From Chrysomallon squamiferum (Eukaryota; Animalia; Mollusca): a DNA stretch of 64,000 nt. Below the pieces are notes generated by a model that was given only the letters and a program-made list of their open reading frames with translations, was not told the DNA's origin and made no database searches. Below are positions 1-48,884 of the stretch, in pieces. The position numbers were made by a program, and so were the translations under genes. Where the stretch lies: the NCBI GenBank assembly GCA_012295275.1, contig CM022673.1, forward strand, positions 24,242,001-24,306,000, written 5' to 3'. Every line of letters starts with the position of its first letter. The stretch's first letter is position 1.

Positions 1-1
1 T

Positions 2-223
2 ACACGAAGTTATGACGTAACGCACCAAATGTGCTGCGGGGGAAACGTTGCGAACAGAAGAGGAATACGTTTTGCCTGTTGTGGACCACGAAGTTACGAT
101 GCGTCATTAAAAATGTGCTGCGGGGGAAACGTCGTCTTCATAACAGGATATCGTCCTGCATGTTGTGGAAAGCAAGGTTATGATGCAACATACCACAAGT
201 GCTGCAATGGTCGTATTTGCTAG
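2..223 (+). CDS. Galaxin-like di-Cys repeat secreted protein, copy 1 (3' part of exon 2; gene starts before the window)
   Basis: Frame reads TRSYDVTHQMCCGGNVANRRGIRFACCGPRSYDASLKMCC...HKCCNGRIC*. Near-identical to copies 2 and 3. AATAAA at 286-291. Confidence 0.85.
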   Translation, partial: TRSYDVTHQMCCGGNVANRRGIRFACCGPRSYDASLKMCCGGNVVFITGYRPACCGKQGYDATYHKCCNGRIC

Positions 224-1168
224 AAGAAAACAAGTACGAATTCAAAACTTGCAGCATTGTTCTATAGAAGAATGCTAATATAATTAATAAATATAATGTT
301 TTTCATTGATTACCTGTAAATTCTGTTCTCATTTTTATATTGACAGTCGAATTTTGAAGCAAGAAAAGAAAGAAAAACACAGCTAATAACAAAATATAAT
401 TATTCTATTCGAAATTCGAGGAAATATCCTAGAATTTGAATCATACAGTCAATAAAGTCATTAGCAAATATCAGCAAAATAGTGATTTTACAATGCACTT
501 ATTTTACACCACAGTAAGAACATGTTAATATTTTTATCTACTGTGGATGTGTATCGTACTTATTTTATGCAAGGTAAATTACTTCTTCTTTCTCGATACA
601 TTTCAATTCTTATTTCAATATATTAAAGAAAGGAATTGATAATAAGTAACAATAATGTATCTGTTTTATACATTAAAAATATATAAATGGTGCCAATAAA
701 TTAACTTCTTAAGATATTTATTAGCAATATTAACATCACATAATATTGTTAGTTTTAAAATTTTATGTAACATATCTTTCTAAACCAATGCGAAATTGTG
801 ATTATGAATAATTTCCCAACAATAATAATGTCACAAACTATTCATACAGTACAGATGTCAGTTTTAGAAATGTCAACCATATATTGATAACCCCAAACAT
901 TTTTAATCCATTTACAAGCGTTTATCCATGCCCTAGAAAATGGAATCCTCCTGTAGATAGACATATCAAGTTTGTCGACCTTTGATCAATGTTAAATTGA
1001 AATAAAAATATGTTTTTTTCTTAATTATTTGATGTTACTTGAGTGTAATATATACACTGTGTCTACTGTCTATAACAGTATAATTGTAGTGATTTATTTT
1101 TCTGTTCGAAGTATTCACCTTGTTTGCTTTTCAGTTCTTAAATAATATCCAGACCAGGAATTTTAACT

Positions 1169-1227
1169 TCCCAAGTGGACTAGTGGTTAGGATTTCGCGG
1201 GCCGGGGTTCGATTACCCGCTTGGGAA
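1169..1227 (+). pseudogene. tRNA-Glu pseudogene lacking the anticodon
   Basis: Matches 7380-7451 but has a 13-nt deletion (ctctcaccgcgac: anticodon loop and 3' stem strand), plus T11A in the A box and C>A in the B box (GGTTCGATTAC). Confidence 0.9.
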
Positions 1228-1395
1228 AATGTTTGATTTACTTTTTCTTTCATCTTTTTCGATACCTATGAGTCGTTACTTCAGTATATTAAAGAAAGAA
1301 ATTGATAAGATGGAATAACAATTTATCTGTGTTTGACAAATGTATAAATATTGTCTAGCTAAAAAGAAAAGAACATATACATATATATATATATT

Positions 1396-1448
<53 letters not shown>

Positions 1449-2720
1449 GTATATATGTATATTATGTATACGTATGGCTGTAACTGAACTCTGAAATGAG
1501 GCAAAAACCTGTATGATGTCTGATGTTGATGGCTTTGAAGTCAGTTTTGTCATTCATCGCGACGATGTTGGTAGACATCAAACGGTAAGCGTACACATAA
1601 ACGAATTCATTCAGTGGATATCGTTTCAATCGGATTGTAAATTTATAGTTTATGTTTTTTGAATAAAATCTTTGTATAAAAGAAAAAAGTTTTAAAAAAT
1701 TAAAAAATTAAACAAATTTATAAAATTAAAATCGTCACTGAAGGTATGTTAGACTGGCTTGATACATATCTACACTTGTGATTCGATAGCTGTATATCAA
1801 ACTAAATTGTGGATATATTTAATGGCGTACATGTGTAGGCACGTGCAGATGCGCAAAATCTGTCCACCTATTGGAGTGCTGAACATTTTCCATTGGCCAT
1901 TACCGTTATAATACTCAGATGTGTTAACAAAGTGTGAAACTTTGGAACCCAGATGAACATATAAATGACATAAGCTGGCCTAATTCGTGACTGTGCCTAA
2001 GAAAGAAATTAGATCATTTTTTTACTTAGAAATGTTAATCGTTTTATAATTTTAGATTCATTTGATGAGCTATCGAAAACTGAAAATAATAAGTTTTCTT
2101 TATCTTCGATTGGTGAACGTTGGTTTGTTTTTGCTTTAACAGTGTTAAAGTATTCGATCGAATTCTCCACCTCTGTAATAACAGATCCACGGTATTCAGG
2201 TTAGTAGTAAGTAAAACTGTCTAATCTGCATAGTTTAGCAACAGAACATTTATAAATGTTTATATTATCCATTTTCTTATATCGTTATTCTAAAATTGTC
2301 AGATGTGATGTTTTTTGCATGTATGTGTTTTAAATCATTATTATTATTATTATTGTTGTTGTTGTTGTTGTTGTTAGTATTATGTAGGATTATACATTAG
2401 AGAGAGACTGAAAAGAATTACGACTTTAAAACTTTCTATTTTCTATAAACCTACAATGGCGTCTCTTTCTTCAATTTTTAATATTTTGGACTTGGATGTT
2501 TCCGATTTTATCTTTTCATGTTATATTTTATTTATAAAACTAATAATATTATAGTGTTGTAATATTAAACTATTACAATTTTAAATATTTGCGATTGACT
2601 GGTATTCTGCAGAGTTATATTAATTTATTTTTTTGTGTATTGTATTATTAATGTTATAAATAATGTCATTTATTTTTCTCCAGACCATTAAAAAAAAGAA
2701 AAAAAGAAGAAAAGAAACAA

Positions 2721-3307
2721 ATGAAGAACATTTCTCTTTTGGCTTTTGTTGTCGCTGTATTACTAACACGAATTCAGTCTTTGGTAATATCGACGTCTTC
2801 ACCAGGTATTTATTTCTTTTTTCTTATGAGGTATAACTTTGATTACACAAATAAACAGCCTACACGCATTTCTGAACCCCTTACAGATGATTGTTTTAAT
2901 ATTGTTACGTGTACACACATCGGAATCAGGTAAATGCATGGATCGATAGATAATATATATATATATTTATATGTTAATGTTGAAATTCAGCTGTATGCGG
3001 TCAGAGCACCTACAATCCAAGGTTCAGCATGTGCTGCGCTGGAAACGTTGTGCCCAGCCCAGGAATATGTTATGGATGTTGTGGAACACGAGGTTATGAC
3101 GGAGCGTACCAAATATGCTGCGAGGGAAACGTTGCGGACACAACAGGAATAAGTTTTGCCTGTTGTGGACCACGAAGTTACGATGCGTCATTAAAAATGT
3201 GCTGCGGGGGAAACGTCGTCTTCATAAGAGGATATCGTCCTGCATGTTGTGGAAAGCAAGGTTATGATGCAACATACCACAAGTGCTGCAATGGTCGTAT
3301 TTGCTAG
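2721..3307 (+). CDS. Galaxin-like di-Cys repeat secreted protein, copy 2 (133 aa; exons 2721-2805, 2991-3307)
   Basis: Exon 1 encodes a hydrophobic signal peptide (MKNISLLAFVVAVLLTRIQS). A phase-1 GT..AG intron (2806-2990) joins in frame to AVCGQSTYNPRFSMCC.... The 28-aa/84-bp repeat CCxGNV...CCGxRxYD is typical of galaxin-like proteins. Confidence 0.88.
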
Positions 3308-4251
3308 AAGAAAACAAATACGAATTCAAAACTTGCAGCATTGTTCTATAGAAGAATGCTAATATAATTAATAAATATAATGTTTTTCATTGATTACCTG
3401 TAAATTCTGTTCTCATTTTTAAATTGACAGTCGAATTTTGAAGCAAGAAAAGAAAGAAAAATACAGCTAATAACAAAATATAATCATTCTATTCGAAATT
3501 CGAGGAAATATCCTAGAATTTGAATCATACAGTCAATAAAGTCATTGGGAAATATAACCAAAATAGTGAATTTTCAATGCACTTATTTCACACCACAGTA
3601 ACAACATGTTAATATTTTTATCTACTGTGGATGTGTATCGTACTTATTTTATGCAAGGTAATCGACTTCTTCTTTCTCGATACATTTCAATTCTTATTTC
3701 AATATATTAAAGAAAGCAATTGATAATAAATAACAATAATTTATCTGTTTTATACATAAAAATATATAAATGGTGCCAATAAATTAACTTCTTAAGATAT
3801 TTATTAGCAATATTAACATCACATAATATTGTTAGTTTTAAAATTGTATGTAACATATCTTTCTAAAACAATACGAAATTGTGATTATGAATAATTTCCC
3901 AACAATAATAATGTCACAAACTATTCATACAGTACAGATGTCAGTTTTAGAAATGTCAACCATATATTGATAACCCCAAACATTTTTAATCCATTTACAA
4001 GCGTGTATCCATGCCCTAGAAAATGGAATCCTCCTCTAGATAGACAAATCAAGTTTGTCGACCTTTGATCAACGTTAAAGTAAAATAAAAATATGTTTTT
4101 TTCTTAATTATTTGATGTTACTTGAGTGCAATATATACACTGTATCTACTGTCTATAACGGTATAATTCTAGTGATTTATTTTTATGTTCGAAGTATTCA
4201 CCTTGTTTGCTTTTCAGTTCTTAAATAATATCCAGAGCAGCAATTTTAACT

Positions 4252-4323
4252 TCACAAGTGGACTAGTGGTTAAGATTTCGCGCTCTCACCGCGACGGCCG
4301 GGGTTCGATTACCCCCTTGGGAA
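4252..4323 (+). pseudogene. tRNA-Glu(CTC), probable pseudogene
   Basis: Full 72 nt with CTC anticodon, but five substitutions relative to 7380-7451 disrupt the acceptor stem, D arm/A box and T stem/B box. Confidence 0.8.
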
Positions 4324-5786
4324 AACGTCTGTTTTACTTTTTCTTTCATCTTTTTCGATACCTATGAGTTGTTACTTCAATATATTAAAGAAACAAATTG
4401 GTAAGATGGAATAACAATTTATTTGTAATTGACAAATGTATATATTTTTTTCTAGCTCAAAAGAAAACAACACACACACACAGAGACACACACACACACA
4501 CACACACATATGTATATATGTATATTATGTATATACATGGCTGTAACTGAACTCTGAAATGAGACAAAAACCTGTATGATGTCTGATGTTGATGGCTTTG
4601 AAGTTAGTTTTGTCATTCATCGCGACGATGTTGGTAGACATCAAACGGTAACCGTAGACATAAACGAATTCATTCAGTGGATATCGTTTCAGTCGGATTA
4701 TAAATTTATAGTTTATGTTTTTTGGAATAAAATCTTTGTATAAAAGAAAAAAATTAAAAACATTAAAAAATTAAACAAATTTATAAAACTAAAAATCGTC
4801 ACTGAAGGTATGTTAGACTGGCTTGATACATATCTACACTTGTGATTCGATAGCTGTATATCAAACTAAATTGTGGATATATTTAATGGCGTACATGTGT
4901 AGGCACGTGCAGATGCGCAAAATCTGTCAACCTATTGGAGTGCTGAACATTTTCCATTGGCCATTACCGTTATAATACTCAGATGTGTTAACAAAGTGTG
5001 AAACTTTGGAACCCAGATGAACATATAAATGTCATAAGCTGGCCTAATTCGCGACTGTGCCTAAGAAAGAAATTAGATCATTTTTTTACTTAGAAATGTT
5101 AATCGTTTTACAATTTTAGATTCATTTGCTGAGCTATCGAAAACTGAAAATAATAAGTTTTCTTTATCTTCGGTTGGTGAACGTTGGTTTGGTTTTGCTT
5201 TAACAGTGTTAAAGTATTCGATCGAATTCTCCACCTCTGTAATAACAGATCCACGGTATTCAGGTTAGTAGTAAGTAAAACTGTCTAATCTGCATAGTTT
5301 AGCAACAGAACATTTATAAATGTTTATATTATCCATTTTCTTACCTCGTTATTCTAAAATTGTCAGATGTGATATGTTTTTTGCATGTATTTGTTTTAAA
5401 TCATTATTATTATTATTGTTGTTGTTGTTGTTGTTGTTGTTATTATTACTGTTGTTTTTATTTTATTATTATTAATATTGTTATTGTTGTTATTGTTGTT
5501 GTTGTTAGTATTATGTAGGATTATACATTAGAGAGAGACTGAAAAGAATTACGACTTTAAAACTTTCTATTTTCTATAAACCTACAATGGCGTCTCTTTC
5601 TTCAATTTTTAATGTTATAGTGTTGTAATATTAAACTATTACAATTTTAAATATTTGCGATTGACTGGTATTCTGCACAGTTATATTAATTTATTTTTTT
5701 GTGTATTGTATTATTAATGTTATAAATAATGTCATTTATTTTTCTGCAGACCATTAAAAAAAAGAAAAAAAGAAGAAAAGAAACAA

Positions 5787-6372
5787 ATGAAGAACATTTT
5801 TCTTTTGGCTGTTGTTGTCGCTGTATTACTAACACGAATTCAGTCTTTGCTACTATCGACGTCTTCACCAGGTATTTATTTCTTTTTTCTTATGTAGTAT
5901 AGCTTTGATTACACAAATAGACAGCCTACACGCATTTCTGAACCCTTACAGATGATTGTTTTAATATTGTTACGTGTACACAGATAGGAATCAGGTAAAT
6001 GCCTGGATCGATAGATAATATATATATATATATATATGTTAATGTTGAAATTCAGCTGTATGCGGTCAGAGCACCTACAATCCAAGGTTCAGCATGTGCT
6101 GCGCTGGAAACGTTGTCCCCAGGACAGGAATAACTTCTGGATGTTGTGGCACACGAAGTTATGACGGAACGTACCAAATGTGCTGCGGGGGAAACGTTGC
6201 GAACACAACAGGAATAAGTTTTGCCTGTTGTGGACCACGAAGTTACGATGCGTCATTAAAAATGTGCTGCTGGGGAAACGTCGTCTTCATAAGAGGATAT
6301 CGTCCTGCATGTTGTGGAAAGCAAGGTTATGATGCAAAATACCACAAGTGCTGCAATGGTCGTATTTGCTAG
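5787..6372 (+). CDS. Galaxin-like di-Cys repeat secreted protein, copy 3 (133 aa; exons 5787-5871, 6056-6372)
   Basis: Same exon-intron structure as copy 2. Signal peptide MKNIFLLAVVVAVLLTRIQS; 16 Cys (seven CC pairs plus two single Cys). Confidence 0.88.
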
Positions 6373-7379
6373 AAGAAAACAAGTACGAATTCAAAACTTG
6401 CAGCATTGTTCTATAGAAGAATGCTAATATATTTAATAAATATAATGTTTTTCATTGATTACCTGTGACATTCTGTTCTGATTTTTAAATTGACAGTCGA
6501 ATTTTGAAGCAAGAAAAAAAACAAAAAAAACAACGACCAGCTAATCATAACAACAAAATATAATTATTCTATTCGAAATTCGTAGATATCCTAGAATTTG
6601 AATCGTACAGTCAATAAAGTCATTAGCAAATGTCAGCAAAATAGTGAGTTTACAATGCACTTATTTTACACGACAGTAAGAACATGTTAATATTTTTATC
6701 TACTGTCGATGTGTATCGTACTTATTTTATGCAAGGTAAATTACTTCTTCTTTCTCGATACTTTTCAATTCTTATTTCAATATATTAATGGAAGAAACAA
6801 ATAAGAAGTAACAATAATGTGTCTGTTTTATACATGAAAAAAATAAAAATGGTGCCAATGTTCTAAAGTTTAGTGTCAATAAATTAATTTATTAATATAT
6901 TTATTAGCAATATTAATATCACATAATATTGTTAGCTTTAAAAAAAATTAATTTTATAATTGTTATTTTTAAAATTTCTAACACAATATGAAATTGTGAT
7001 TGTGAATAATTTCCCAACAATAATAATGCCACAAACTATTCATATAGTACAATTATATACCAACAGATTTCAGTTTTAAACATGTGAACCATATATTCAA
7101 TATTGATAACCCCAAAAGCTTTTAATCCAGTTATAAGCGTTTACCAATGCCCTAGAAAATAGAATCCACCTGTAGGTAGTCATATCAAGTTTCTCGACCT
7201 GTGATCAATGTTAAACTGAAATGACAATATGTTTCTTTCTTAATTATTTGTGATGTTACTTGAGAGTAATATATACACTCTGTCTATAACAATATAATTG
7301 TTGTGATTTATTTTTCTGTTCGAATTATTCACCTTGTTTGGTTCAATTGTTAAACAGTATCCAGACGGTATTTGTAACT

Positions 7380-7451
7380 TCCCAAGTGGTCTAGTGGTTA
7401 GGATTTCGCGCTCTCACCGCGACGGCCGGGGTTCGATTCCCCGCTTGGGAA
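7380..7451 (+). tRNA. tRNA-Glu (anticodon CTC), intact
   Basis: TCCCAAG/CTTGGGA acceptor stem, A box TGGTCTAGTGG, TCGCG-CTCTCAC-CGCGA anticodon arm, CGGGG-TTCGATT-CCCCG T arm, downstream T-run terminator. Confidence 0.95.
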
Positions 7452-9056
7452 AACGTTTATTTTTGTTTTTCCTACTTTGTTTCGATACTTTTGAATTGAT
7501 AAGGAGTAACAATTATTTACCTGTTTTAAATATAAAAATAGAAAAATGGTGCCAATATTATAAAGTTTAGTGTCAAAAAATTAATTTAGTAATATATTTT
7601 CTTATTTTTACTTTTATGTATTTATTATCACATAATATTGTTAGTTTTAAAATTATATGTAACATATCTTTCTAAAACAATATGAAATTCTGATTATCAA
7701 TAATTTTCACAACAATAATAATGCAGCAAACTATTCATATAGTACAATTATATACCAACAGATTTCAGTTCTAAACATGTCAACCACATATTGATAACCC
7801 TAAACACTTTTAATCCACTTCCAAGCCCTTGAAAATGGAATCCATCTGTAGATAGACATATCAAGTTGTCGACATGTGATCAACGTTAAACTGAAATAAG
7901 AATATGTTTTCTTTTTTGATCATTTGTGATGATACTTGAGTGTGATATACACACTCTGTTCTAAATATGTGAACCTCATACTGATAACCCAAAATTGTTT
8001 TTAATCCATTTCCAAACGTTTATCCATGCCCTAGAAAATGGAATCCACCTGTAGGTAGTCATATCAAGTTTGTCAACCTGTGATTAAGGTTAAAGGGAAA
8101 TAAGAATATGTTTCTTTCTTAATTATTTGTGATGTTACTTGAGTGTAATATATACATTGTGTCTACTGTCTATAAGAATATAATTGTTGTGATTTATTTT
8201 TCTGTTCGAAGTATTCACCTTGCTTCGTTTTCAGTTCTTAAACAGTATCCAGAAAGGGGTTAGTAACTTCCCAAGTGGTCTAGTGGTTAGGATTTCGCGC
8301 TCTCACCGCGACGGCCGGGGTTCGATTCCCCGTTTGGGAAATTGTTTTTTTTCGATACTTTTGAATTTTATTTCAGTAACAATAATTTATCTGTTTTATA
8401 AATAAAAATATAAAAATGGTGCCAATGTTCTTAAATTTAGTGTCGATAATTTAATTTAGTAATATATTTATTTTTACTTTTTTTTTGTCTATTTATTAAC
8501 AATATTAACATCACATAATATTGCAAGTTTTAAACTTTTATGTATCATATTTCTAAAAGATTTTGAAATTGTGATTATGAATAATTTCCCAACAATAATA
8601 ATGCAACAAACTAGTCATATACGATATAGTACCATTATATACCAACAGATTTCATTTCTAAACATGTCAACCACATATTGATAACCCCCAAAACTTTTAA
8701 TCCACTTCCAAGCGTTTATCCAAGCCCTAGAAAACTAGGAACAAGAAAATCAATCCTGAATGTGGTTGTCAAACTTTGGTTTTGGGGTTGTTGTAGTTGG
8801 CTCGAGTTTTGTTTCTTTTGATCATTTCAAACTGAAACAATTATACCTTAAGCTTACGATTTGTTCAGAACAGATTCTTGAGGTCTATTTAATAAAATAA
8901 AGAACAATTTCCACGACTGTTTTTCAAGACATGTTATAGAGCTTGCACACCATAGCACCACTAAAGTCAAACAAACTGCTCAAAACAACAGACACCTACC
9001 ATAACATGGAAAGACTGTACACTTCACCTTAGAAACTTCAGACTGCATTTGTAACT
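7452..9056 (+). repeat. Short tRNA-array spacer units homologous to the tRNA-upstream part of the 3-kb unit
   Basis: tRNA starts at 7380, 8269 and 9057 (spacings 889 and 788). Spacer motifs (aaaatggtgccaat, aacaataataatg, gataacccc, gccctagaaaa) recur and also match ~650-1168. Confidence 0.85.
8269..8340 (+). tRNA. tRNA-Glu (anticodon CTC), intact
   Basis: Identical to 7380-7451 except one C>T giving a G-U pair in the acceptor stem. T8 terminator follows. Confidence 0.93.
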
Positions 9057-9079
9057 TCCCAAGTGGTCTAGTGGTTAGG
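9057..9079 (+). pseudogene. 5' part (nt 1-23) of a tRNA-Glu gene split by a retrotransposon
   Basis: TCCCAAGTGGTCTAGTGGTTAGG is an exact match to tRNA nt 1-23, preceded by the same tttgtaact flank as the 7380 copy. Confidence 0.92.
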
Positions 9080-12000
9080 TTTAAGTTTACATTTAATAGT
9101 TGCGACACTGAAGGCAGGATTTTAAAAATTAATACGAAAATAGATGAAGAAGAATACAGTTTTATAAATGTATATGCACCAAATAATATTGAAGAAAGAA
9201 TTTTATTTTTTAAAGGATTATGTAAATTTGTGGATTTAAAAAATACAATAATGGCAGGAGATTTTAATGAAATTTTAGATCCTAATTTAGATTTGGGCAT
9301 TAATAATAAAACTTTCAATATAAAAAGTAGTAATGAATTACAGTCAGTTATTTTTAATTATAATTTAGTTGATATTTGGCGACACAGAAATCCAGATAAA
9401 AGGCAATTTACTAGATCTCAAATAGTTGAAAAAACTATAAAACAGTCAAGAATTGATTTATTCTTAATTTCTAGAAATTTATTGCAGTTTATAAGTAATG
9501 TATACATATCCTATACCTCGGTTAGTGATCACAATTTTTTATCACTTAAAATAGATTTTTCTCATGTAGAGAGAGGTCAAGGTATTTGGATCTTTAATAA
9601 TGAATTGTTGAAAGATGAAAGTTTTTGTAAAGCTATTATTGAAGTAATTAATAATGCTTCTGAGTGTCCTTTGTTACAGACTGAACCTAGTGTTTGGTGG
9701 GACAACTTAAAATATAAAATGAAAACATGTGCAAGAAATTTTGCAATAAAAAAAAGAGAAAATCAGATAACGAAAAATATTATAATATACAAAATGCTTT
9801 GAAAAGAGAATATGCTAAACTAGCTGTAAATAATCATCATGATTTGAGTAACATACAAATTTTAGAAGAAAAATTAAAATTAATTGAGAGATCTAAATGT
9901 AATGGTGCTATTTTGAGATCTAAAGCTCATTGGAATCTAGATATGGATAGAAATACCACATTTTTTCTCAGTTTAGAAAAATCAAAACAAGAATCAAATT
10001 CTATTAAAGAGCTAAAAACAGTAAATGGATTAACAAGAAAAACAGAAGATATATTACAATATGCTTATGACTTTTATTCAAAATTATTTACGCAAGAAAA
10101 TGTAGATATTATTAAACAGGAAGAAATAATAAATTTAATATCAAATAAACTAAAAGAATCTGAAAGTGAAAACTGTGAGAAAGACATTACAATTGAAGAA
10201 TTAACTGAAGCTTTAAAAGAAATGAATAGAAATAAATCACCTGGTTTGGATGGTCTAACAGTAGAATTTTATGTTAAATTCTGGGAAAATTTTAAAAATT
10301 TCTTTCATAAAGTAGTTATGTCAATTCAGAAAGAAGAAATGTTGTCACGCAGTATGAAAAAAGGAGTAATTAGTTTATTTTACAAGAAAAAAGGAGATAA
10401 AGCAGACCTAAAAAACTTCAGACCTATCAGCCTTTTAAATGTAGATTATAAAATTATTGCTAAAGTTCTTGCAAATCGTCTTAAACAAGTAATGTCAACT
10501 ATTATTTCATCAGAACAAACCTGTTGTGTAAAAGGAAGAGATATTGCTGACAATATTATGTCAGTAAGAGATATTATAGATATTGTCGAGTTAAATAATA
10601 CAGAAGGGTATATAGTTAAAATAGATCAAGAGAAAGCATTTGATAGAGTATCACATAGTTTTATTTTATAAGTTTTGAAAAAATTCAATTTTGGTGATAA
10701 TTTTATAAAGTGGATTAAAATACTATATAATAATATAAAAAGTTGTGTAAAAATTAATGGACATTTAACACCTTTTTTCAATATTACAAGAGGGGTTAGA
10801 CAAGGATGTCCAATATCAATGATGCTTTATGTTAGTGTAGCTGAACCCTTAAATAATTTAATTAAAAAAAGACATAGCATGAATGGAATTAGAATAACAA
10901 ATGAACTTAATTCTTTATTATTTCAGCATGCAGATGATACTACAGTAACTGTCTGTGATGCTCAGTCAGTAGAAAATGTTTTTAATACAATAAATATGTA
11001 TTGTAGTGCTACAGGGGCAAAAGTCAATGTAGATAAGTCAGAAGTACTTTATCTTGGTAAAACCATGATTGAAAACTTATCCTTTAACATTCCAATATCA
11101 ATAAATAAAAACTATGTTAAAATTCTAGGTATATATTTAGGACCAAATAAACTATTATGTGAAACTTTGAACTGGAAAAATAAATTAACTAAAATGTCTA
11201 TTCTAATTAACTTATGGAGTCAAAGGAAACTTACTTTGCACGGAAAAGCTGAAGTATGGAATACTTTATTAACATCAAGACTGTGGTATATCATTAGCAC
11301 AATAAATGTACCAAATTGGGTAGAAAATGAAATTCATAAATTATTTTGTAAATTTATGTGGGAAGGGAAAACATCTTTAATAAAATATTCAACAATAATT
11401 GGAAATAAAATGTCGGGTGGACTAAATATTCAAGATATTTCATTAAAGAAAATGGCTTTTCGAATAAAAATGTTAAAGAAATATTTTGATAATAATTTAA
11501 AAAATGTGTGGAAATATACAATGTCAATATTTCTTGAAAAATATATGAATATGAATCTAAATTATGACATTTTTAAAATAGTATACAGTAAAGAAGCTTT
11601 AAAAGTTATCAATCCCTTTTATGCTGAAATGTTATCAGCTTGGGACTATGTTAATAATGGAGAACGTAATTTCCCACTTGATACAGATGAAATATTGTCT
11701 CAGCCACTTTTTCAAAATCCATTCATTAAATATAAAAACAAATTATTATTATTTAGTTCTTTTATAAAAAGTGGAATAGTCAAAGTGGCTGATATTGCTT
11801 ATGAAGTAATACCAGGTTTTCTTCCTTTTACAGCTATTGTAGAAATTATTCATGAAAAATCTCCAGAATTATCCAAAAACCAAATTTATATAGCTTACAA
11901 TGTTATTAAGAAATCACTTCCAGATGAATGGAAAAGTTCTATTAACAGAAATGCTAAAAAATTTACTTCTAATAAAGATTTATTTTTGTTTCAGAATAAT

Positions 12001-12702
12001 GAAATGATAAATGTCAATAAATTTACAGCTAAAATAATTTATTCTATTTTAATTTTAAAAAACTTTAAAGCACCAATGTGTGAAGAAAAATGGAATGAGC
12101 TTGGTTTTAATATATTCTGGAGACCAGTTTGGAAATGGATACACTATAGTGATAAATTTACTGAATTTATAGACTTAGATTTTAGAATAGTTCATCATAT
12201 AATATATACATATAACAAATTATATAAATATGGCAAAATCTCATCTAGTGTATGTCCAGTGTGTTTGAAGGATGATGAAGATTTGTGCCATTTATTTTTG
12301 TATTGTTAAGAATTGAAGGAATTAATATCAATCTTTCATAAAATATGTATTTAAATATTTAAGAAAACAGGGTTTTCTCTAGAACAATTAAAAAGATTAT
12401 TAATATTTGGATGTTATCTCAAAATTGAAAATAGTACAATAGAATTTATTAATATTATTCTTTCAATTTATAGAATAACAGTGTTCAAAAGGCGTGTAAT
12501 AGCTCAAATGAAAGGAACAAATATCAATATAATACATTTTTTTAGAAATTATATGTATCAGTGCTTTAAAATCATTCTAAATCAATATCGTATTCAAAAC
12601 AAACTTTCAATTTTTATTAACAAGTATGTTAAGAACAATATTTTCCTAGAACTAAAAGATGACATACTTATTTTCAAATATCCTTTGGAAAACTACAAAT
12701 AA
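9080..12702 (+). pseudogene. Disrupted ORF2 (APE endonuclease - reverse transcriptase - CCHC knuckle)
   Basis: Motifs INVYAPN, MAGDFN, SRIDLFL, SDH (APE); KSPGLDG, NFRPISLLNVDYKI, IDQEKAFDRV, GVRQGCP, QHADD (RT); CPVC-x8-H-x4-C. One frameshift near the A-run at ~9750 and in-frame stops at 10669, 12307 and 12352. N-terminus and ORF1 are absent. Confidence 0.92.
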
Positions 12703-12924
12703 TCAATATAGATAAATCATGGAAATGGATAAAAGAATTAATACTATAAAATACTGTAAATATATATGAATATTCCGAATAAATAAGTATGCATGCATGT
12801 GAGTGTGAATGAGTGTGACTGAGTGTGTGAGAGGAAATAGTTTTTGTTATTGTTATTTACAGCTGTAATGTTATTTTAATTGTGTACAACTGGTGATTAT
12901 ACTAATAAAGATAAAAAAAAAAAA
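9080..12924 (+). mobile_element. 5'-truncated L1/Tx1-clade non-LTR retrotransposon inserted inside tRNA-Glu
   Basis: APE endonuclease, RT and CCHC domains. 3' UTR with AATAAA (12904-12909) and A12 tail (12913-12924). Flanked by the two parts of one tRNA gene with (A)GG duplicated. Confidence 0.93.
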
Positions 12925-12975
12925 GGATTTCGCGCTCTCACCGGGACGGCCGGGGTTCGATTCCCCGTTTGGGAA
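12924..12975 (+). pseudogene. 3' part (nt 21/22-72) of the split tRNA-Glu(CTC) gene
   Basis: (A)GGATTTCGCGCTCTCACCGGGACGGCCGGGGTTCGATTCCCCGTTTGGGAA directly follows the poly(A). One C>G in the anticodon stem. Downstream flank matches that of the 7380 copy. Confidence 0.92.
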
Positions 12976-13388
12976 AACATTTATTTTGGTGTTTCCTTCT
13001 TTCATTCGATACTTTTGAATTGAAATGAGGTATTAAGTATTTAGGTTTCTATTCTATTACATGAAGTTACTGGGATTTCTTATTAAAGGTAATTACATAC
13101 TGTAATGTAAATGGATAGGAAAAATTCTTTTTCTCATAAAATTACATATGCTGTTGCTTAACTACTCTACATTGACCAAATTAATGATGTTTTTTTGTTT
13201 TTGTTTTTTAAATTTCTACAAACCAAAATGATGCTAGACATATAGACAAGGACAGACACTCACACATAATGACAAATAAAATACAAATGGAGACGTATTC
13301 TGTCATTATTTTATTACAGTTATTTTTTTTACACTTTTCAGGTTTTGTACATTACTGTCATATCATTTTTTTAATTATTATTATTCAA

Positions 13389-16500: not shown

Positions 16501-19500
16501 GTCTGCCAGTTTTCTTCTCCTAATTCATCATCCTCTGAAACTACACCTTCAGCACCTTCCATTTCTGCCACTAAAATTGTAAAAAAAAATGACATTTATA
16601 TATATATATATATATATATATATGATTTAAAAGTATTTAAAAAATTATAATACAGTGGTGAAATCATTTTTCTTTTTACAATTTTATTTTTTTATTGAAA
16701 ATTAGTTTTTTTCTAGCTTATATATATATACACACAAATAACAGAATATTTCAGTTAATGACATTTAAACCTGTATTAAGTTCTGAAGCTAGAAAACAGT
16801 AATTTTCAATAAAAAATAATAAAAAAAAAAATTTAAAAATGTTATAAAAAAATAAAATATAAATACAGTAATAAAATAAATAAAGAAAACAGAAAAATAT
16901 ACAAGAACCTGTTGTACTCTCAAGCTGATTTGTTCCTAATTTCTTCTGTTTATCATTGTATTTATTATTGCCTTCCAAAATTTTAGACAGAAACTCTTTG
17001 TTCATTTTTCCACAAAAACCTTTTTTTTCTTTGACATTATCTTTATCTGAATATGTGATTATGCTGCTAGAAGGAAGATTTAAAGAGTCACTGGCAGATT
17101 TTTTTGAAAACAATGGTAGAGGTTTCAATGGTTTTGGTTGGGATTTGCATAGCTCCACTGGTTGTTTTGGGTCATAGTTACATTTATACTCCATTGGGTA
17201 CTGTTCACACTGTGAGTTCCAGTCTTCACAAGATGCTCTCTTCACTGATCCAGTATTCCCAGAGTCTCCTTCCTTTGAATTGGAGGTCTTACCTTTAGAG
17301 CTGGCTTTAGTCAACTTGGTTAATTTACTAATGAATCTAGTGGCTGTTGATGTGGTATTTTTTGAAACTGCTGCCTCGCCGGTGTTCACTACAGCAGAGA
17401 AAGTTGGCTTGGTTGAAGGTTTTGTTGTTTTCTGTCCTGCAGACTTTCTGTTGTGAAGAACATAGGGCTGGAGAGATTCTGGAAGATCAGGTTCTGTGAC
17501 AGGCCCTGTGTTTTTGCTTGTGACATGAGTGGAGGTTGGAGGAACAGTTTGAACACTGTCAAACCATTGTGGTGTTAAGTCTGGAGCTTTAATGGTATGT
17601 TTTGCATCAGATTTATTCAGTGGTTCAGCTGAACTGAAACTTAATACTTTAGGTGAATGACCTGACACATCTGTTTCTTCTATCACAGCAGATGGTGTGA
17701 GATTCTGCTGCATTTGTTTACAATCTTTTCTTTCAGAGGCACTTAGTGGTGATGGTGAAACCAGATTTTCATTTGCATTTATTTCTGGCTTTTTTGCTTC
17801 GCATGCTTTTACATCAGTCATTACTATGCTATTATGTTCATTTTTATTTCCGTTATCAGTACCCGAATGACCAGCTGTTTGATCAACTTGACTGGCTTTT
17901 GTGCTTTCTGCATCTAATGTTTTACAAGATGTTTCACCAGTATTATCTAATTCTGTAGGATTCACACATGACTGACCATTCTGGATGTAAGACTGCAGCA
18001 CCATTGTCTGCTGTAAGCACACTGCCTGCAACAACTGAGGATTACCAGCCATCTGAGGATAGGCACTGGTTAACTGAGCCATCACAGCTTGGAACAATGC
18101 AGGATCAAATGCTCTGTTTTGCAAAGCTGCCAACATATGTGGAGATGTTTGGCCAAAGCCAGCAGCATTTGGATTTACACCTGTTCTTTGAGACCACGTG
18201 CAAGGACTTCTCACTTGAGGATGTGATAAAGATGCAGACACGAAAGTGCTGTAAGCCGGTGCTGGGCTGGTTGGTGTGTTGTGTTCTAAATTGACAGATG
18301 GGTAACACATCTCACTAGTTGTTAACAGATTGTTTACATGAGGCAAAGAGGTGAATGCTGTGGAAGGTGCAGGTGAAACTCCCACAGGAGTGCAAGACAG
18401 TTTAGAAGACACAGAAGTTGTAACACCTGTCAAATGTAGTTTATTAGCTGCTGATTTTGGGATACCAGACTGACAGCTTTCTGCATCTGGAGTCATGGGA
18501 ACATCTCCAGACGGTGAAGATTCCACATATTTTGCACTGTTTCCTGTGTTATCATTTCTGTCATTGTTAACTTCATTAACAGGCTGACATTTAGACAATG
18601 CCTCACAAATAGTGTTATTTCTGTCTGATTTATTAACCGATGAACTTAGTTCATTCACATCAGACCTGTGGTGTTTGTCTTTCCTCAATTCTTTGTATTC
18701 AAAAGTCTCAAGCACTTTTAAGTCATTTTTAACAAGATCTGCTGGTTTTGTTTTCAATGTGCTGGATGGAGATTCTTCTTCACTTTTGAGGAGGACATTC
18801 TGGGCTTGTTTTACCAACAGAACTAAATCAATATCATCACAAGTGGTTGAGTTGTACTTCTATAAAAAAAAAAAATAAGAAGATTTTGAAAGTTTGGTTT
18901 TTGTTCTAAGTCCCAAAACATTCATTTATTTAGAAAATATTAACTTTCTCATAGCATTGATATATAAATATTAAGTATTTAATGCAATTATCATTTTCTC
19001 TCCCAAATAAAATGATATTTAGTGTATTTTTAGAGGAAGACTGTTATCTCTGTTAACAAATGAAATATGTTATTTCATATCTGTATATGTATTATATAGA
19101 TAGATAGATAGATAGATAGACAGATAGATAGCTAGATCATTTAAGACATTTTGACTGCATTACAAATTACCAGGTTATTCAAGTCTGGTTGGGTTTCACA
19201 TCTGTCATTAGTCAAGCTTTCAATCTGGCTTCCATGTTGGATAGCAGACATACATTCATTAATATCTGGTGTAATAATTTCTACTCTGTGACGACTAGCA
19301 ACTTCTGTCAATACTTTTTCTTCTTCATTTTTGTCTTCAAAATTAATCTTGTCCTTCCAATTATTTGCTTTAGCTGTGTATTTTTCATTAAATGTTTCCG
19401 ATCCACTGACATCACCCTGATTTCTGCCCAACTCAGATGTTGATGTAGTAATTCTAGCAAAACGTTTGGTTGAAAAAAACGATATGGGATCACGAGACAA

Positions 19501-22500
19501 GTTCTTTTCAGAAGGAGGATGTCTCTGTTGTGTTGGCTGAATGTTACGTGACTCTGCTGAAGTCTGAGCAGAACACTGAGCATTGTCTGCATGCTGATTG
19601 ACGTTGTTATTATCGTCAGAGAACAAGGAGTCTTCACTTTTCCACCTCAAACTGCATTTCTCTAGAGATCTGTTCCACTCAGCAAACAGAAAGCTGCTGC
19701 TTCCATCTTCTGTGATAGAAGTATAAAAGTTTTCACTTTCAATGATTTTCTCTTCCATCAGATCATTTTCACGTTTTTCACTTTCATTCATTTTCTTTTC
19801 ACTCTGTCCTGCACCAGATGTTTCATTTTCATTCTCTTTCACATTGAATTGCTCAGCATTTAATGTTACAGGCTCTGCATTAAATGTTACAGGCTCTGAA
19901 TTTAATGTTATAGGCTCTGCATTAAATGTTACAGGCTTTGTTCTTTCGACCTGATCTGAACTGAGTGTTTCCTGTTCAGGAGTATAGCTGTGACTGTTTT
20001 GATCAGCGGGCTCACAGTGATGTGATGTAATGTTCAGTGTCGCAGTGCACTGGTTTATGTCTTCTTCAGCTCCCAAACACACATTCTCTTCAGATGTTTT
20101 CCTACTTGAACTGCAAGTCACATATTCTTGATCAGAACTGTAATCCACATAGCCAGAGTTTTCGTCTGAAACATCGACTTTCTTTTGAGATTTTACAGCA
20201 GGACATGTCAGTGAAGTGTTGTTAGTATTATGTTCTTTGTTTCTGTCTTGATTGGAGTTTCCCTCTGATTCAGTCATTTTCAAAAACATTTTATGTAATG
20301 TGGTTGATCTTGACTTTGGCTTGTTAGATGCAATCTCCAGCTGTCAGGAAACAAATAGAGAAAGAAAAAGGAAAGAAGGTAAGCAAGCAAATATAACAGT
20401 ATATGTTTATACATTTTAGTGTCTCTTAAGTGTCTTTTCTGAGGAATTTTCCAGTTTGTCAATTTTCAAACAGTTACGATAATTTTTTGTCTCCGAAGAA
20501 GAATGCCATATCAATATAAATTTGATTTGTCACAATTATCTGCAAAAATCATTTATCAGCATGTTTCAAACTTCATTATTTTTCTACTGCAATTATTTTC
20601 AAAATTATTTTCAATACAAACATATCATTTTCAAATTAAGTGGCAAAAATATAAAAAAAAATAAAATATGATTTTTTGAATTTTTCTTTTGACAGCTCCA
20701 AGACAATAATGAATAACTGATGTAATCCACTTGTACACAAAGTTTAACTTTACTCTTCAGTATCTTGGGACAGACCTCTACCTAGTATCACTGTGTCCAC
20801 TTTAATAAAAACTGTTCACAAATCAGTGAAAAGCTAACTACAGATGTAACCTAATTTTGTAACAAATAATTATCATTATTAAATATGGCTTTAAACTGAT
20901 GTTTAGCAATAACTAACTGCAGAATAGTAGGATAATGCTGAAAGACTACTTCTAAATTATGACAAATTTAAATATTACTTCTTTGGGCCTGAAAGAAATA
21001 TGGCCACATATGGATGGTATTTCAATACACGGAGTTGGTAATTCGTCCAAGTGTAAACCGCTTTTCAGAGCCTGCAAGCAGTACTGCTCTTGATCCTGAA
21101 AGAAACAACATTGGAGTAACCACACCCTACAAGCAGCTCGAGAATAGCAAATATATTCACTACTTAACATGATATAACCTATTTCTGGTTCAAAAACAGA
21201 ACTTTATTGTCATTTATTATGTCACTTTTTAAATCGCAAAATAAAATAATGTTTTATTTAAAAGTTTAAGAACAGTGCCATGTTTAGAATTAACACATCT
21301 CTACTAGTTTAACGTTTTCTTCACAATTTATGCTGACTAAATGCTGAATATTCTCCGTCAACATTTAGAATAATTTTGAAAAATGCACCCTCTGGATTAT
21401 CTGATGTTGTTTCTCTTTATTTAGGAATAATTAAGTTTTGCAAAAAAATAACAAGGTAACATACCTTAATTTGTGATATTTTATCTTTTAGTTCTTGAAT
21501 TTTTGTGTCTACAAACCATTCAATGTTTTCATCTTTATCCCTGATGAACATCAAAATTAAAACTTGTATAAAATTTTAATGGTTTTTAACTTTAATTGTT
21601 AAAAAACATAACTCATAAACAAATAAAAAACAACAATCTTAAACTGTCTGCATCTCCAGCCCAGCCAAAATATGGGTAGGGGGAGAAATTATTAAATAAA
21701 ATAAAATTAAAATAAAACATTTAAATAAAATATTAATATCCAATGAAATCAAGTTCAATTGATGAAATTATTATTTTTTGTCTGCCAATTTCAGTTTCAG
21801 ATAACTGTAAAACAGGTAGGATATTTGGAATTTAGCAGTTTCAGGAATCAAAGAAACAATATAGAAACTCAGTGTATGCTTACAGAGGAGTGAAGAATTG
21901 AGTCCAGCGAAGTTTAGAGTAAGTTAGATCATGCAGCTGCTGTTCTAGTTCCTTGAGACAGAGTTGTGATCTCAGATGAACAACTAACATCTAAAAAAAA
22001 AAAGTCATAAACTGAAAATGTCCTGCTGCTGTTTAATGTTTAGAAAGTAAGTGAGAATGCAAATAATGATAATCTATTAATTTTGTTCTATGGCAATTTG
22101 ACTACATTACATTATGTCTGGGATTAAGTGCAGTCCCTAGTATTCTCAGTCACAAATATGACTTCAAAGTGAAAAGATTTTATAGCCATTATAGTTTTTT
22201 CATCTGCACTTCTGATGTCAACTTTAAAATGATCTTTTTTTTGTCAGCTCCTGTTTAGAAATTATATTAACACAAATTTTAATCCACAAACTCTAAGGAT
22301 AAAAAAAAAAAAAAAAAAATCTATACCTCAGTATCCAGTAATTTCTGACTTTTTTCTTCACAAGAAGAACAAGTTTGGGACACAGTATTTTCAATGTCAT
22401 CATTCTGGATGTCAGCCTGCAATTTAAAAGATGTAATTTGGTTTTGAAAGACATTCTCAACATGTGTAATGCCTAAACAAGTTAACCTCAAATTGCAAAG

Positions 22501-25500
22501 TAATATAAATGTAATGTCTTCATAATTTTTATGATTCAAATCATTTGTTTTTATCCAGTTCTTAGTTACAAGTTAATGAAAATTCTTACTGATTCGTAAT
22601 CATGTCAATTTTACCTTTAGCTTTAAAAAATCAAACAACAATGTGCCTGAATAGATTAGTTAAATTAAGACAAAAGATTACAAAATATTTAACCTGGACA
22701 TATTCTGAAGAGACTTTGGTTGATGATGTCATTACATGACAATCTCTAGTTGAAACAGAGGTGGAGTCAAACTGTGAATGATCATCTGTGTTTTCTGATG
22801 AGGTTGATGTCTGTTCTTTCTTATCAGCTGTCAGAATGTTTTGTGTGTTTACTGCAACATCCTCAGTGTCCCTGTCTGGTGAAGTGAATGAAGTGTTGCT
22901 TTGGTTTGCTCCAGAATTGTTCACATTCAGTGTGAGTGCCTGATTCTCTAAGGGTTTATTTAGCAAAGAGCTAGTGTAGTCCTTACCCGTTAGACCTGAA
23001 TTATTCACATTCGACTTAAGTGCCTCTTTCTGTAGATGTGTATTTGATAAGGAACTAGTACACTCATTGTTAGTCAGACCTGAATTGTTCACATTCAGCT
23101 GGAACCAGGCTGGCACATTTATGTCAGAGGTCAGAAAATATTTGTCACCATCAGAATTATTCATATTTAACATGAATTCTCCATCAGACAAATATCTCTC
23201 ATTAAAATTACCACACATCACACTGTCGTTTAATCTGGAGACAGAGTCTAATGAATAACTGCTGTCCAAGTCACAACACTTTAGAAAATCACTAGCTAAG
23301 ACTGAATAATCACTACTGTATTTTTCATGTGAATCACTACCAAAGTTAGTTAGAGAATTAGACGAAGTTGGGTCACAAATAAAATCTAATCTTTCTGGAT
23401 TAGATTTCAATCCAGAAGTAGACAAAAAACAAGATGTGTTTGAAGTGGGAAAGTTATATTTTCCTGCATCTTGTAATTTGCTTTCAGTGAGAAATGACTC
23501 AGAAAACTTTGGCTCAAAGGGTGGGATGTCAGGGTTAAGATTATATTGCTTTTCGTATGTTGTAGCCCCTGATTCCTCTTTGTCTTCTGAGCTGCTGTTT
23601 TCACACTTGACCTCCTTGTAAACTTTGTCTAAAACTCTCACTACAATACATCCAGCATATTCATCCAGATACCTATCAGGTAATGCTGTTTGGCCTTTTC
23701 TTTTTCCTCTGTTACTGTTATCCTTGTCTTTAACTGTTAAATCACCGTTAAACAATTTATTTAACAAAATTTCTGCATTAAATTCTGCAGCCTTCTGAGA
23801 GGCGACATGTTTGCTGTCTTCAGTGCTTTCCTTTTCACTCATCTGCAATCCAGAACTGGTGATAGAAATACCATGTTCTGCAGCTCTTTTCATGAATTCT
23901 TGACTCACATCACTGGTAACAGCACCTGCAGATAAACAGAGACATTATGTATACTTCATTTTTTTTTCTCTGTTTTCCTTACTTACTTTACCAGATGAAA
24001 CTGTAGCAATATAGATTTTAAACACGTTAGAGTGATTTAAATTTGAAATATTTCTGAACTCAGCCATTCCATTTTATTTCTGAATACGTTTCATTTAAAA
24101 TGAAAAGTAGGAGAAAATCTGGATGAATGATTCATGTAATTAACAAAAAACACTTGCAGTTTTGCAGTTAAAACAAAATATATTGTTATACCAACTTACC
24201 ATGTGCATTTTCAGCTTTAGAATTGACAGTTGGTATTTTATCAGCAACCAAAGAGTCCCTATATTGTGAAAATACAATGTGTTAGAATGCTAAACTTTTA
24301 GTGCTGGACACATTATAGACATTAAAAATGTGCAATTTCCTTTAAAATATATAAAAATATGATCAATCAGGGTTAAACCTTGATTAAAATTAAAAAAATA
24401 TGATCAATCAGGGTTAAACCTTGATTAAATTAGCTCATCACTAACATGTCTCCACATGCTACACACACACATCAAGGAAAATATGAAAGCTAATCAGCCT
24501 AATGTACATTTTAAAATCAGTTTTATACCTTCTACCTGCTGGTGACAGGTCACTGGATGACTCTGTGTTCACAGACTTCGATGCTGACATCTTTGAATTT
24601 ACATCCTCAGTGACATCAACACAGTCAAAATTAAATAATGTTTTCACTCCTGTCATCTCAGAGTTCTTTCCACTGTTATCATATTTAGGCAGAGACTGAG
24701 CTGATGATTTAGTCTGTGTGACCTGCGACTCCTCACTGCTAGACAAGCACTGAGCTGCCAGCTTGGTTTCCTTTACCTCAGAAGGCAGACAGCTCTGTTT
24801 CAGAGTACCTGTTTTCACTTTATTGTATCTTAGATCTGACCTGTTAATGAGTTATTACAAAATTATTAAAGAGTGGATTACAATATTAATTTTATCATTA
24901 AAGAATAAAACAGGCACAGACTGTCTATATAATTTGCACTCTCTATTTAATGTAATAACAGTTCATCTGGGTTAATAATTATTTTATTTATTATGGACTC
25001 AACCCATTCTAATAATAAAGGCTGTTAATAACAACATGTCATTACATGAAAGAAGAATGCTATTTTAAACTGTAGAAAGAAGGACAGATTTCAGATAAAT
25101 TATTTTCAGATAATCAAGATCAAAAATCAAACCGTTTTCTTTACAGCAATCTTGTAACTCATTTCCAGCTGACTCACAGACTGGAAATAATACTTAACTA
25201 TTTGTCACTTACTTTTCAAGAGGCACTTTATCAGAGGATATTTTTATGTCTGACTGCTTCCTTGGTGTGTTTGTCATTACCGAACCTTCTTCATCTTTGA
25301 AAGTTAAACTTGCTTTTGCAGAACTCACTGGGTGATGTTTCAAAAGTGACGTCTGTAACTTTGGTGATTTATAAATAATGGGCAAAGAAATGGAGCTTGG
25401 CGGCTTCTTTGAAAGTGAATTGACTGAGTGCAGTTGTTGAAACGAAACAGGAGATGTCACCGAGTGATTCTGAGTCACTGGTGACAGTATTATAGGATTC

Positions 25501-39830: not shown

Positions 39831-48884
<9,054 letters not shown>

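What the first reader, a model, noticed from the sequence alone, without database searches (positions are those of the whole stretch)
9057..12975. Tx1-like retrotransposon inserted inside a tRNA-Glu(CTC) gene: candidate tRNA-gene-targeting element
Seen in sequence: tRNA nt 1-23 (...GTGGTTAGG) sit directly before the element, and nt 21/22-72 ((A)GGATTTCGCGCTCTCAC...) directly follow its poly(A). The element is in the same orientation as the tRNA, and both outer flanks match the intact array copies, so removing it rebuilds one gene. Established: Tx1-clade APE elements include sequence-specific families targeting multicopy RNA genes (Keno/U2 snRNA, Mutsu/5S rDNA, Dewa/tRNA-array spacers). Inference: landing in a 72-bp GC-rich gene amid AT-rich DNA suggests an endonuclease specific for the tRNA-Glu D arm, with the redundant array buffering the damage. 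One insertion cannot prove specificity, and I cannot tell whether this family is already catalogued.
Basis: partly seen in the sequence, partly recalled or inferred. Interest (0 to 1): 0.9.

Follow-up and report, generated by a model that had tools for sequence, protein, structure and literature searches.

The report
Retrotransposon aimed inside tRNA genes
A broken LINE-type jumping gene splits a glutamate tRNA gene at base 21/22, and a relative from another animal splits an aspartate tRNA gene at the same base, so this lineage likely uses one fixed spot inside redundant tRNA genes as its landing site.

Summary
Observation confirmed. A 5'-truncated, decayed non-LTR retrotransposon (9080-12924: endonuclease remnant, reverse transcriptase, CCHC finger, AATAAA, A12) sits in sense orientation between nt 1-23 and nt 22-72 of a tRNA-Glu(CTC) gene, with a 2-3 bp duplication. 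Removing it gives a tRNA one base from an intact neighbour. Decisive new evidence: the only close relative with a visible 3' end (L090, 72% DNA identity, 1 of 3 close loci) is inserted in a tRNA-Asp(GTC) array at the same nucleotide and orientation. The chance of that, given landing in the array, is 0.001-0.003. The endonuclease has the 11-residue Tx1L-length hairpin, and ORF2 is far closer to U2-inserted (Keno-site) elements than to human L1. Corrections: the target is not Glu-only at lineage level, and the flanks match the neighbouring copies only over about 18 and 68 bp. Site-specific insertion inside tRNA genes is known for RLE retrotransposons (LIN15, LIN25) and Dada transposons. For Tx1, nine literature searches showed only Dewa (spacer); Repbase was not searchable. 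This scan earlier noted related habits on other DNA (Tx1 in SINE heads, LIN-like elements in tRNA arrays), but no sequence look-alike. Verdict: new variant of a known kind, resting on two insertions.

The parts
9039..9056 (+). Short genomic upstream flank shared with the intact tRNA-Glu copy at 7380; indicates a genomic target rather than a copied tRNA fragment
9057..9079 (+). tRNA-Glu(CTC) nt 1-23; the last 2-3 bases are the 5' copy of the target-site duplication
9080..12924 (+). 5'-truncated Tx1-type non-LTR retrotransposon copy: no ORF1, ORF2 begins at about residue 92 of the full-length relative P0002; one frameshift near 9750-9766 and three in-frame stops (10669, 12307, 12352)
   Evidence: other copies continue further 5' (loose ends before 9082 in 3 of 4 runs)
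9080..9574 (+). Remaining two thirds of the APE endonuclease (YAPN, GDFN, SRID, SDH motifs; 11-residue hairpin of Tx1L length); the N-terminal catalytic part is missing
10387..11133 (+). Reverse transcriptase domain (RVT_1, E 1.6e-35 when read with X at the stop)
12181..12318 (+). C-terminal CCHC zinc-finger region (zf-RVT, weak, E 0.007)
12703..12912 (+). 3' UTR with AATAAA at 12904-12909
12913..12924 (+). Poly(A) tail of 12 A; the last A may be tRNA nt 21
12925..12975 (+). tRNA-Glu(CTC) nt 22-72, with one private change at tRNA position 41 (anticodon stem)
12976..13043 (+). Downstream flank 81% like that of the copy at 7380
7380..7451 (+). Intact tRNA-Glu(CTC), empty-site reference
8269..8340 (+). 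Intact tRNA-Glu(CTC), closest to the rebuilt split gene
4252..4323 (+). Decayed tRNA-Glu(CTC) copy with several substitutions
1169..1227 (+). tRNA-Glu copy with a 13-nt deletion of the anticodon region

Best explanation
This is a truncated, broken copy of a Tx1-type LINE sitting at nt 21/22 of a tRNA-Glu gene, and its lineage likely inserts by design at this D-loop/D-stem boundary of Glu- and Asp-type tRNA genes. Shown: the anatomy, the 2-3 bp duplication, and a second, independent insertion at the same base and orientation in tRNA-Asp (L090). Inferred from established target-primed reverse transcription: the APE endonuclease would read the motif shared by both targets (TAGTGGTKA|GKAT) and nick the non-coding strand opposite nt 21/22 (or 20/21). 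The freed 3' end would prime cDNA on the poly(A) tail. Synthesis stopped early inside the endonuclease region, and the top strand would be cut after G23, giving the GG/AGG duplication. The precise 3' junction and variable 5' junction (nt 23 kept here, only nt 10 kept in L090) fit this model. The hit gene is predicted to be lost, and redundant copies would absorb the cost (1 of 37 tRNA-Asp genes on the L090 contig is hit).
For: The two insertions lie in different tRNA isotypes with different flanks, so they cannot be one inherited event; both have poly(A) followed by nt 22. Both fall in one clade (SH-aLRT 99; FastTree 1.0). The chance of the same base and strand, given landing in the 498-bp array unit, is 0.001, or 0.003 allowing +-1 nt. 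The endonuclease hairpin aligns without gap to the Tx1L loop graft 2v0r and has a 2-residue gap against L1; PMC1950540 ties this loop to target selection (passages). In the four clusters of 62-68% relatives, 6 of 40 distinct contig lengths (from 58 listed of 122 members) carry members of two or more subfamilies, five of them only 24-88 kb long. That is the clustering expected if they share array targets, though contig identity is inferred from equal length only. The family is multicopy, with less damaged copies, in public runs of the same organism.
Against: Only two insertions have a known 3' junction. The other two close loci (L091, L092) end before the 3' end. No whole genome is held, so the share of this genome's copies that sit in tRNA genes is unknown. 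A pattern scan for poly(A) plus the tRNA-Glu 3' part found 0 matches in metagenome contigs, and a Glu/Asp pattern found 0 in viral contigs and only L090 in 5 bins. Of 24 copies with a recognisable AATAAA-poly(A) end among 119 RT copies in the loci, 18 have other flanks, 4 U2, 1 U1 and 1 tRNA 21/22; all but L090 are distant (about 25-40% identity). No biochemical test was possible.
Confidence: 0.82

Rival explanations
1. Targeting is real but comes from tethering to RNA polymerase III factors bound at the A box, not from sequence reading by the endonuclease.
For: Both targets are Pol III genes, and the site lies just 3' of the A box. The two targets differ at 2 of the 13 shared-motif positions and more widely outside it.
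Against: Tethered elements such as TRE5-A insert at a distance from the gene, not at one base inside it (PMC3706591, passage). Here both junctions are at the identical nucleotide, and the endonuclease has the long hairpin of a sequence-specific Tx1 enzyme.
Confidence: 0.08
2. The family is only weakly specific. It nicks pyrimidine/purine steps broadly, and the two tRNA cases are a favoured subset among many other sites.
For: The non-coding strand at the Glu site reads TCCT/AA, like the loose L1 consensus TTTT/AA quoted in PMC1950540. Weakly specific families are known (PMC4640811). The L090 contig is mostly tRNA array, which raises its prior.
Against: In AT-rich genomes such steps are far commoner outside the GC-rich tRNA. 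The same base and strand were hit in 2 of 2 informative cases (p 0.001-0.003 within the array unit), and the Asp site reads TACT/CA, not T-tract/AA.
Confidence: 0.08
3. The arrangement in the window is an assembly error or a recombination between repeats.
For: No listed public contig bridges either junction by 31 bases on both sides (most pieces were not shown). The region upstream of 9039 does not match the neighbouring units.
Against: The tRNA halves are complementary with a 2-3 bp duplication, a poly(A) tail and a 5' truncation, the signature of retrotransposition. Both flanks are present letter for letter in independent runs (8658-9073 and 12949-13300, 0 differences in X1 and X5). The same junction type occurs in another assembly.
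Confidence: 0.02

Closest known systems
Keno (U2 snRNA) and Mutsu (5S rRNA), Tx1 clade (PMC4494074, PMC3706591, PMC4640811; passages read; the original 2004 paper not seen)
   Same: APE-type Tx1 LINE inserted at a fixed base inside a multicopy small RNA gene; in the U2-inserted elements found here it is in sense orientation with a precise poly(A) junction (4 such copies at U2 nt 36-39)
   Different: The target is tRNA nt 21/22; ORF2 belongs to a separate lineage from the U2-inserted elements
[quoted passage not shown]
   Same: Tx1-clade element associated with tRNA arrays
   Different: Dewa sits in the spacer and leaves the gene intact; this element splits the gene. No Dewa sequence was available for comparison
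LIN25_SM (tRNA-Glu), LIN15_SM (tRNA-Arg), NeSL-1_TV (tRNA-Pro); NeSL-related RLE retrotransposons (PMC4640811, passages and S6 Fig passages)
   Same: Non-LTR retrotransposons inserted at a fixed base inside tRNA genes, tRNA-Glu included
   Different: Restriction-like, not APE, endonuclease. By my count on the S6 Fig sequences, LIN25 has its 3' junction at nt 4/5 and LIN15 at nt 23/24, two bases from the site here: convergence, not kinship
Dada DNA transposons, e.g. Dada-tD (tRNA-Asp) (PMC3706591, PMC8869645; passages)
   Same: Families targeted inside specific tRNA genes; related families use related target sequences
   Different: DDE DNA transposons with 6-7 bp duplications, at nt 8-13 or the anticodon arm, not nt 21/22

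Membership tests
Non-LTR retrotransposon, L1 group | ORF2 with N-terminal APE, RT and C-terminal CCHC finger; poly(A) tail; 5' truncation; short target-site duplication | tested here: met
Tx1 clade | RT phylogeny groups with named Tx1 families (Tx1L, Keno, Mutsu, Dewa) | tested here: inconclusive
   No Repbase reference sequences were available. With U2-inserted elements as stand-ins for Keno, FastTree joined the lineage with them at 0.998, but IQ-TREE on 69 of the 238 rows (67 picked by hand, plus 2 added) left the node open at 88
Tx1 clade | ORF2 closer to Keno-type elements than to mammalian L1 | tested here: met
   phmmer 334-378 bits to 4 of 4 U2-inserted elements against 193-197 bits to human L1 ORF2; three elements of unknown target scored 339-416
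Tx1 clade | Endonuclease hairpin loop of Tx1L length (11 residues) | tested here: met
   Best PDB hit is LTx 2v0r, gap-free over the loop; 98 of 100 scored relatives, out of 121 examined, have 11 residues. TRAS1 also has 11, so this is supportive, not exclusive
Tx1 clade | ORF1 with zinc knuckles | tested here: met
   ORF1 is absent from this copy; the same-clade relative L091 has zf-CCHC, E 2.6e-6. That this marks Tx1 is recalled, not read
Target-specific family (criterion of PMC4494074: more than 20% of flanks in one repeat type) | Share of copies flanked by the target | not testable with these tools
   No genome held; 2 of 2 informative junctions, from two genomes, are at tRNA nt 21/22
Dewa | Insertion in the tRNA-array spacer | tested here: not met
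   Both insertions are inside the gene
LIN/NeSL tRNA-targeting elements | C-terminal restriction-like endonuclease, no APE | tested here: not met
   An N-terminal APE is present

The most novel reading that the evidence does not exclude
An undescribed radiation of Tx1 retrotransposons in marine invertebrates, with at least six subfamilies at 60-74% identity (the window's, the four clusters in the L090 host, and L091/L092). They all cut tRNA genes at the D-loop/D-stem boundary, and each is tuned to a different tRNA isotype (Glu, Asp, others). This would be the first APE-type retrotransposon family aimed inside tRNA genes, converging within two bases on the site used by the unrelated RLE element LIN15. 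It may derive from a U2-targeting ancestor, since the U2 context (GTGTA|GTATC) resembles the tRNA-Asp site (GTGA|GTATC). It would give a natural series of endonucleases for decoding how APE enzymes read sequence.
Probability: 0.3. Interest if true: 0.7.

Novelty: new variant of a known kind. Interest (0 to 1): 0.5.

Why it matters
It adds the inside of tRNA genes to the target list of APE-encoding Tx1 retrotransposons, for which the papers read here list U2 and U5 snRNA, 5S rRNA, the tRNA-Leu spacer, microsatellites, satellites and other transposons. Loop grafting showed that APE specificity is not simply modular (PMC1950540). Close relatives with one cut position but different tRNA targets (Glu, Asp) would make the specificity code testable by domain swaps between intact full-length ORF2 sequences (P0002, P0160, P0164). 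A site in a conserved, redundant gene family is also the kind of landing pad sought for site-specific gene insertion. The strategy itself (hide in multicopy RNA genes) is well known, which limits the surprise.

Tried and rejected
Whole-genome count of 3' flanks: no genome is held. A finer view of that junction was not obtained, so the share of copies in tRNA genes stays open. Depth ratios of long element contigs to flank contigs (about 10-60 fold in X1, X5, X11) show a multicopy family but are not a copy number. Run X9 (organism B) gave only 3 short internal pieces. Pattern scans: 0 in metagenome contigs (Glu-type pattern, which would not match Asp), 0 in viral contigs, 1 of 5 bins (L090 itself). 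Searches used a wrongly spaced pattern and are void. The metagenome homologue scan covered 4 of 64 parts and returned only distant relatives; viral hits were 25-33% identical. The bins behind L091 and L092 hold no 3' end of the element. The tRNA T-arm-like matches in L002, L025, L064, L093-L095, L098, L100, L110 and L014 are internal 3' UTR sequence of another lineage, not target flanks. The idea that the 5' tRNA piece is a copied RNA fragment was rejected because 18 bp of genomic upstream flank are kept. 8735-9038 was checked as a second LINE fragment: no significant protein or window match. A full IQ-TREE bootstrap run timed out. The ESM Atlas gave only generic RT names. PMC10886601 held nothing relevant. 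The supplements and Fig. 3 leaf labels of PMC4494074 could not be read and may list a tRNA-targeted Tx1 family.
Full report
OBSERVATION. tRNA-Glu(CTC) nt 1-23 lie at 9057-9079. A 3.85-kb insert follows, ending in AATAAA (12904) and 12 A (12913-12924), and then tRNA nt 22-72 (12925-12975). GG, or AGG if the last A of the tail is counted, occurs on both sides. Removing the insert and one GG in a script gives a gene that ARAGORN calls tRNA-Glu(CTC). It differs at 1 of 72 positions from the intact copy at 8269 and at 2 of 72 from the copy at 7380; the private change is in the anticodon stem, as expected from decay after insertion. tRNA-Glu sequence is 0.6% of the rest of the window. The flank claim needs trimming: similarity to the other copies covers about 18 bp upstream and 68 bp (81%) downstream, and 8735-9038 matches nothing else in the window. 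The neighbouring repeats are roughly 3.07-kb duplications of a galaxin-repeat gene plus one tRNA-Glu, followed by shorter partial units.

THE ELEMENT. The insert matches the full-length ORF2 P0002 from residue 92 to 1281 at 67%. It keeps two thirds of an APE endonuclease, an RT domain and a weak C-terminal zinc finger. It has one frameshift and three stops, and lacks ORF1 and the start of the endonuclease, so this copy cannot be autonomous. Eleven public runs hold part of the stretch, nine of them (organism A, three studies) more than half of its words. Contigs of 4 runs were laid. In the three organism-A runs, element contigs are 10-60 times deeper than flank contigs, other copies continue 5' of 9082, and most depth lacks this copy's stops. 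So a multicopy family with less damaged members exists. Both flanks are present without differences in X1 and X5. No listed contig bridges a junction, but most pieces were not shown.

INDEPENDENT TEST. A protein search found 3105 relatives among 7985 candidates scored. The closest are unnamed (62-68%); the best named are from Mytilus, Patella and Holothuria at 37-43%, so the host is likely a marine invertebrate (inference). Locus scans with an alignment of 30 relatives returned 80 metagenome loci (4 of 64 parts scanned), 9 viral loci and 57 loci in prokaryote bins. Three were close: L090, L091 and L092 (72-74% DNA identity to the window element); these look like animal contigs binned with bacteria (inference). 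L091 and L092 end before the 3' end. L090 is complete there. Its copy lies in a tandem array of tRNA-Asp(GTC) genes with a 498-bp unit. Its AATAAA and 13-A tail are followed by tRNA nt 22 onward, in sense orientation, the same position as in the window. On its 5' side tRNA nt 1-10 are kept and the element begins in the end of ORF1, so the 5' junction differs while the 3' junction is exact; PMC4640811 describes that pattern for Utopia and R2 (passage). The contig carries 35 intact tRNA-Asp genes, one cut by the contig end and one split. Different isotype and flanks exclude a shared ancestral insertion. Given landing in the array unit, the same base and strand has probability 0.001, or 0.003 allowing one base either way. 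The two targets share TAGTGGTKA|GKAT. Weaker support: among 58 listed members (of 122) of four subfamily clusters related to L090, 6 of 40 distinct contig lengths carry two or more subfamilies, five of them 24-88 kb long; equal length is only a proxy for the same contig.

RESULTS AGAINST OR NEUTRAL. Only two junctions are known. Pattern scans found nothing further: 0 in metagenome contigs (Glu-type only), 0 in viral contigs, and 1 of 5 bins, L090 itself; two searches were mis-spaced and are void. Among 119 RT copies in the loci, 24 had a recognisable AATAAA-poly(A) end: 18 other, 4 U2, 1 U1, 1 tRNA 21/22. The habit is therefore not shared by distant relatives; the targets of the 40-55% relatives are unknown.

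PLACEMENT. The window element, L090, L091, L092, P0002, P0003, P0160 and P0164 form one clade (SH-aLRT 99). ORF2 scores 334-378 bits against four elements inserted at the Keno site of U2 and 193-197 bits against human L1 ORF2. FastTree on 238 rows joined the wider lineage with the U1/U2-inserted elements at 0.998; IQ-TREE on 69 rows left that node open. The best structural-database sequence hit of the endonuclease is LTx (2v0r), human L1 endonuclease carrying the Tx1L hairpin, aligned without gap over the loop, whereas L1 has a two-residue gap. PMC1950540 identifies LTx and links the loop to target selection (passages). 98 of 100 scored relatives have an 11-residue loop. L091 has an ORF1 with a zinc knuckle. 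Tx1 membership is thus probable but was not tested against named reference families.

MECHANISM. Shown: anatomy, duplication, recurrence. Inferred from established target-primed reverse transcription: the endonuclease nicks the non-coding strand opposite nt 21/22, the freed end primes on the poly(A), synthesis aborts early, and a top-strand cut after G23 yields the 2-3 bp duplication. The tRNA gene is split between the A box and B box and is predicted to be dead; redundancy would absorb the loss. I put 0.82 on direct sequence-specific targeting, 0.08 on tethering to Pol III factors, 0.08 on weak preference, and 0.02 on artefact.

WHAT IS KNOWN. Literature searches. PMC4494074 (passages and section 15; supplements and figure labels not readable) lists Tx1 targets as transposons, U2, U5, 5S, satellites and microsatellites. 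PMC3706591 (passages) gives Dewa as targeting the spacer of tRNA-Leu. PMC4640811 (passages, S6 Fig passages) reports RLE-type elements inside tRNA genes: NeSL-1_TV (Pro), LIN15_SM (Arg) and LIN25_SM (Glu). By my count on the printed junctions, LIN25 inserts at nt 4/5 and LIN15 at nt 23/24. PMC8869645 (passages) places Dada DNA transposons at nt 8-13 or the anticodon arm, tRNA-Asp included. None of these searches showed an APE/Tx1 family inside tRNA genes; the 2004 Kojima and Fujiwara paper, subscription reviews and Repbase were not seen. Earlier notes of this scan describe Tx1 elements in tRNA-derived SINE heads and LIN-like elements in tRNA arrays on other DNA (unchecked), with no sequence look-alike and nothing from this genome.

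VERDICT. Real, and probably a tRNA-gene-targeting Tx1 lineage with a cut site at nt 21/22 shared by Glu and Asp genes. It is a new target for a known strategy: new variant of a known kind, interest 0.5.

Noticed in passing
window 1-6400 (exons about 2721-2806 and 2990-3304; 5787-5870 and 6061-6369; partial 1-225): Tandem duplicated small secreted-type genes with galaxin-like cysteine repeats (PF24748, E 4e-23 and 4e-22), each unit also carrying a tRNA-Glu(CTC); the two tRNA copies in the first units are decaying.
   Followed up: partly
L114:11605-11611: A Tx1-like element whose 3' end lies about 5-6 nt upstream of a tRNA-Gln(CTG) gene in a mixed tRNA cluster, leaving the gene intact (Dewa-like position); single case.
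   Followed up: partly
L002, L064, L093, L110 (3' ends), L034:3783, L111: Tx1-like elements whose 3' ends abut the start or interior of U1 snRNA genes; L093 also has copies at the Keno site of U2 in a mixed U1/U2/5S array. PMC4640811 lists only Dada-U1 for U1.
   Followed up: partly
L090, L093-L100, L110, L114, L122 and others (genome contigs): Several bacterial MAG records contain AT-rich contigs with spliceosomal RNA genes, eukaryote-type tRNA arrays and LINEs, likely host contamination.
   Followed up: no
window 9226-9738: Public contig depth over the endonuclease region is 3-4 times that over the 3' end, the reverse of the usual LINE pattern; may reflect internally deleted derivatives, more conserved subfamilies, or summed overlapping contigs.
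   Followed up: no
P0064 cluster (Patella caerulea): Related ORF2 copies have neighbouring locus tags or accessions (SNE40_021121 and 021123; KAK6190870 and KAK6190872), suggesting stacked copies at a repeated target.
   Followed up: no
window 48243-48947 (-); 16754-23944 (-): An exon with a TNFR cysteine-rich domain (E 6e-8), and three long open frames of a host gene with no clear Pfam family.
   Followed up: no
L090:5587-6280: A short decayed relic of a more distant Tx1-like ORF2 (42% to P0002) just upstream of the tRNA-Asp array.
   Followed up: no
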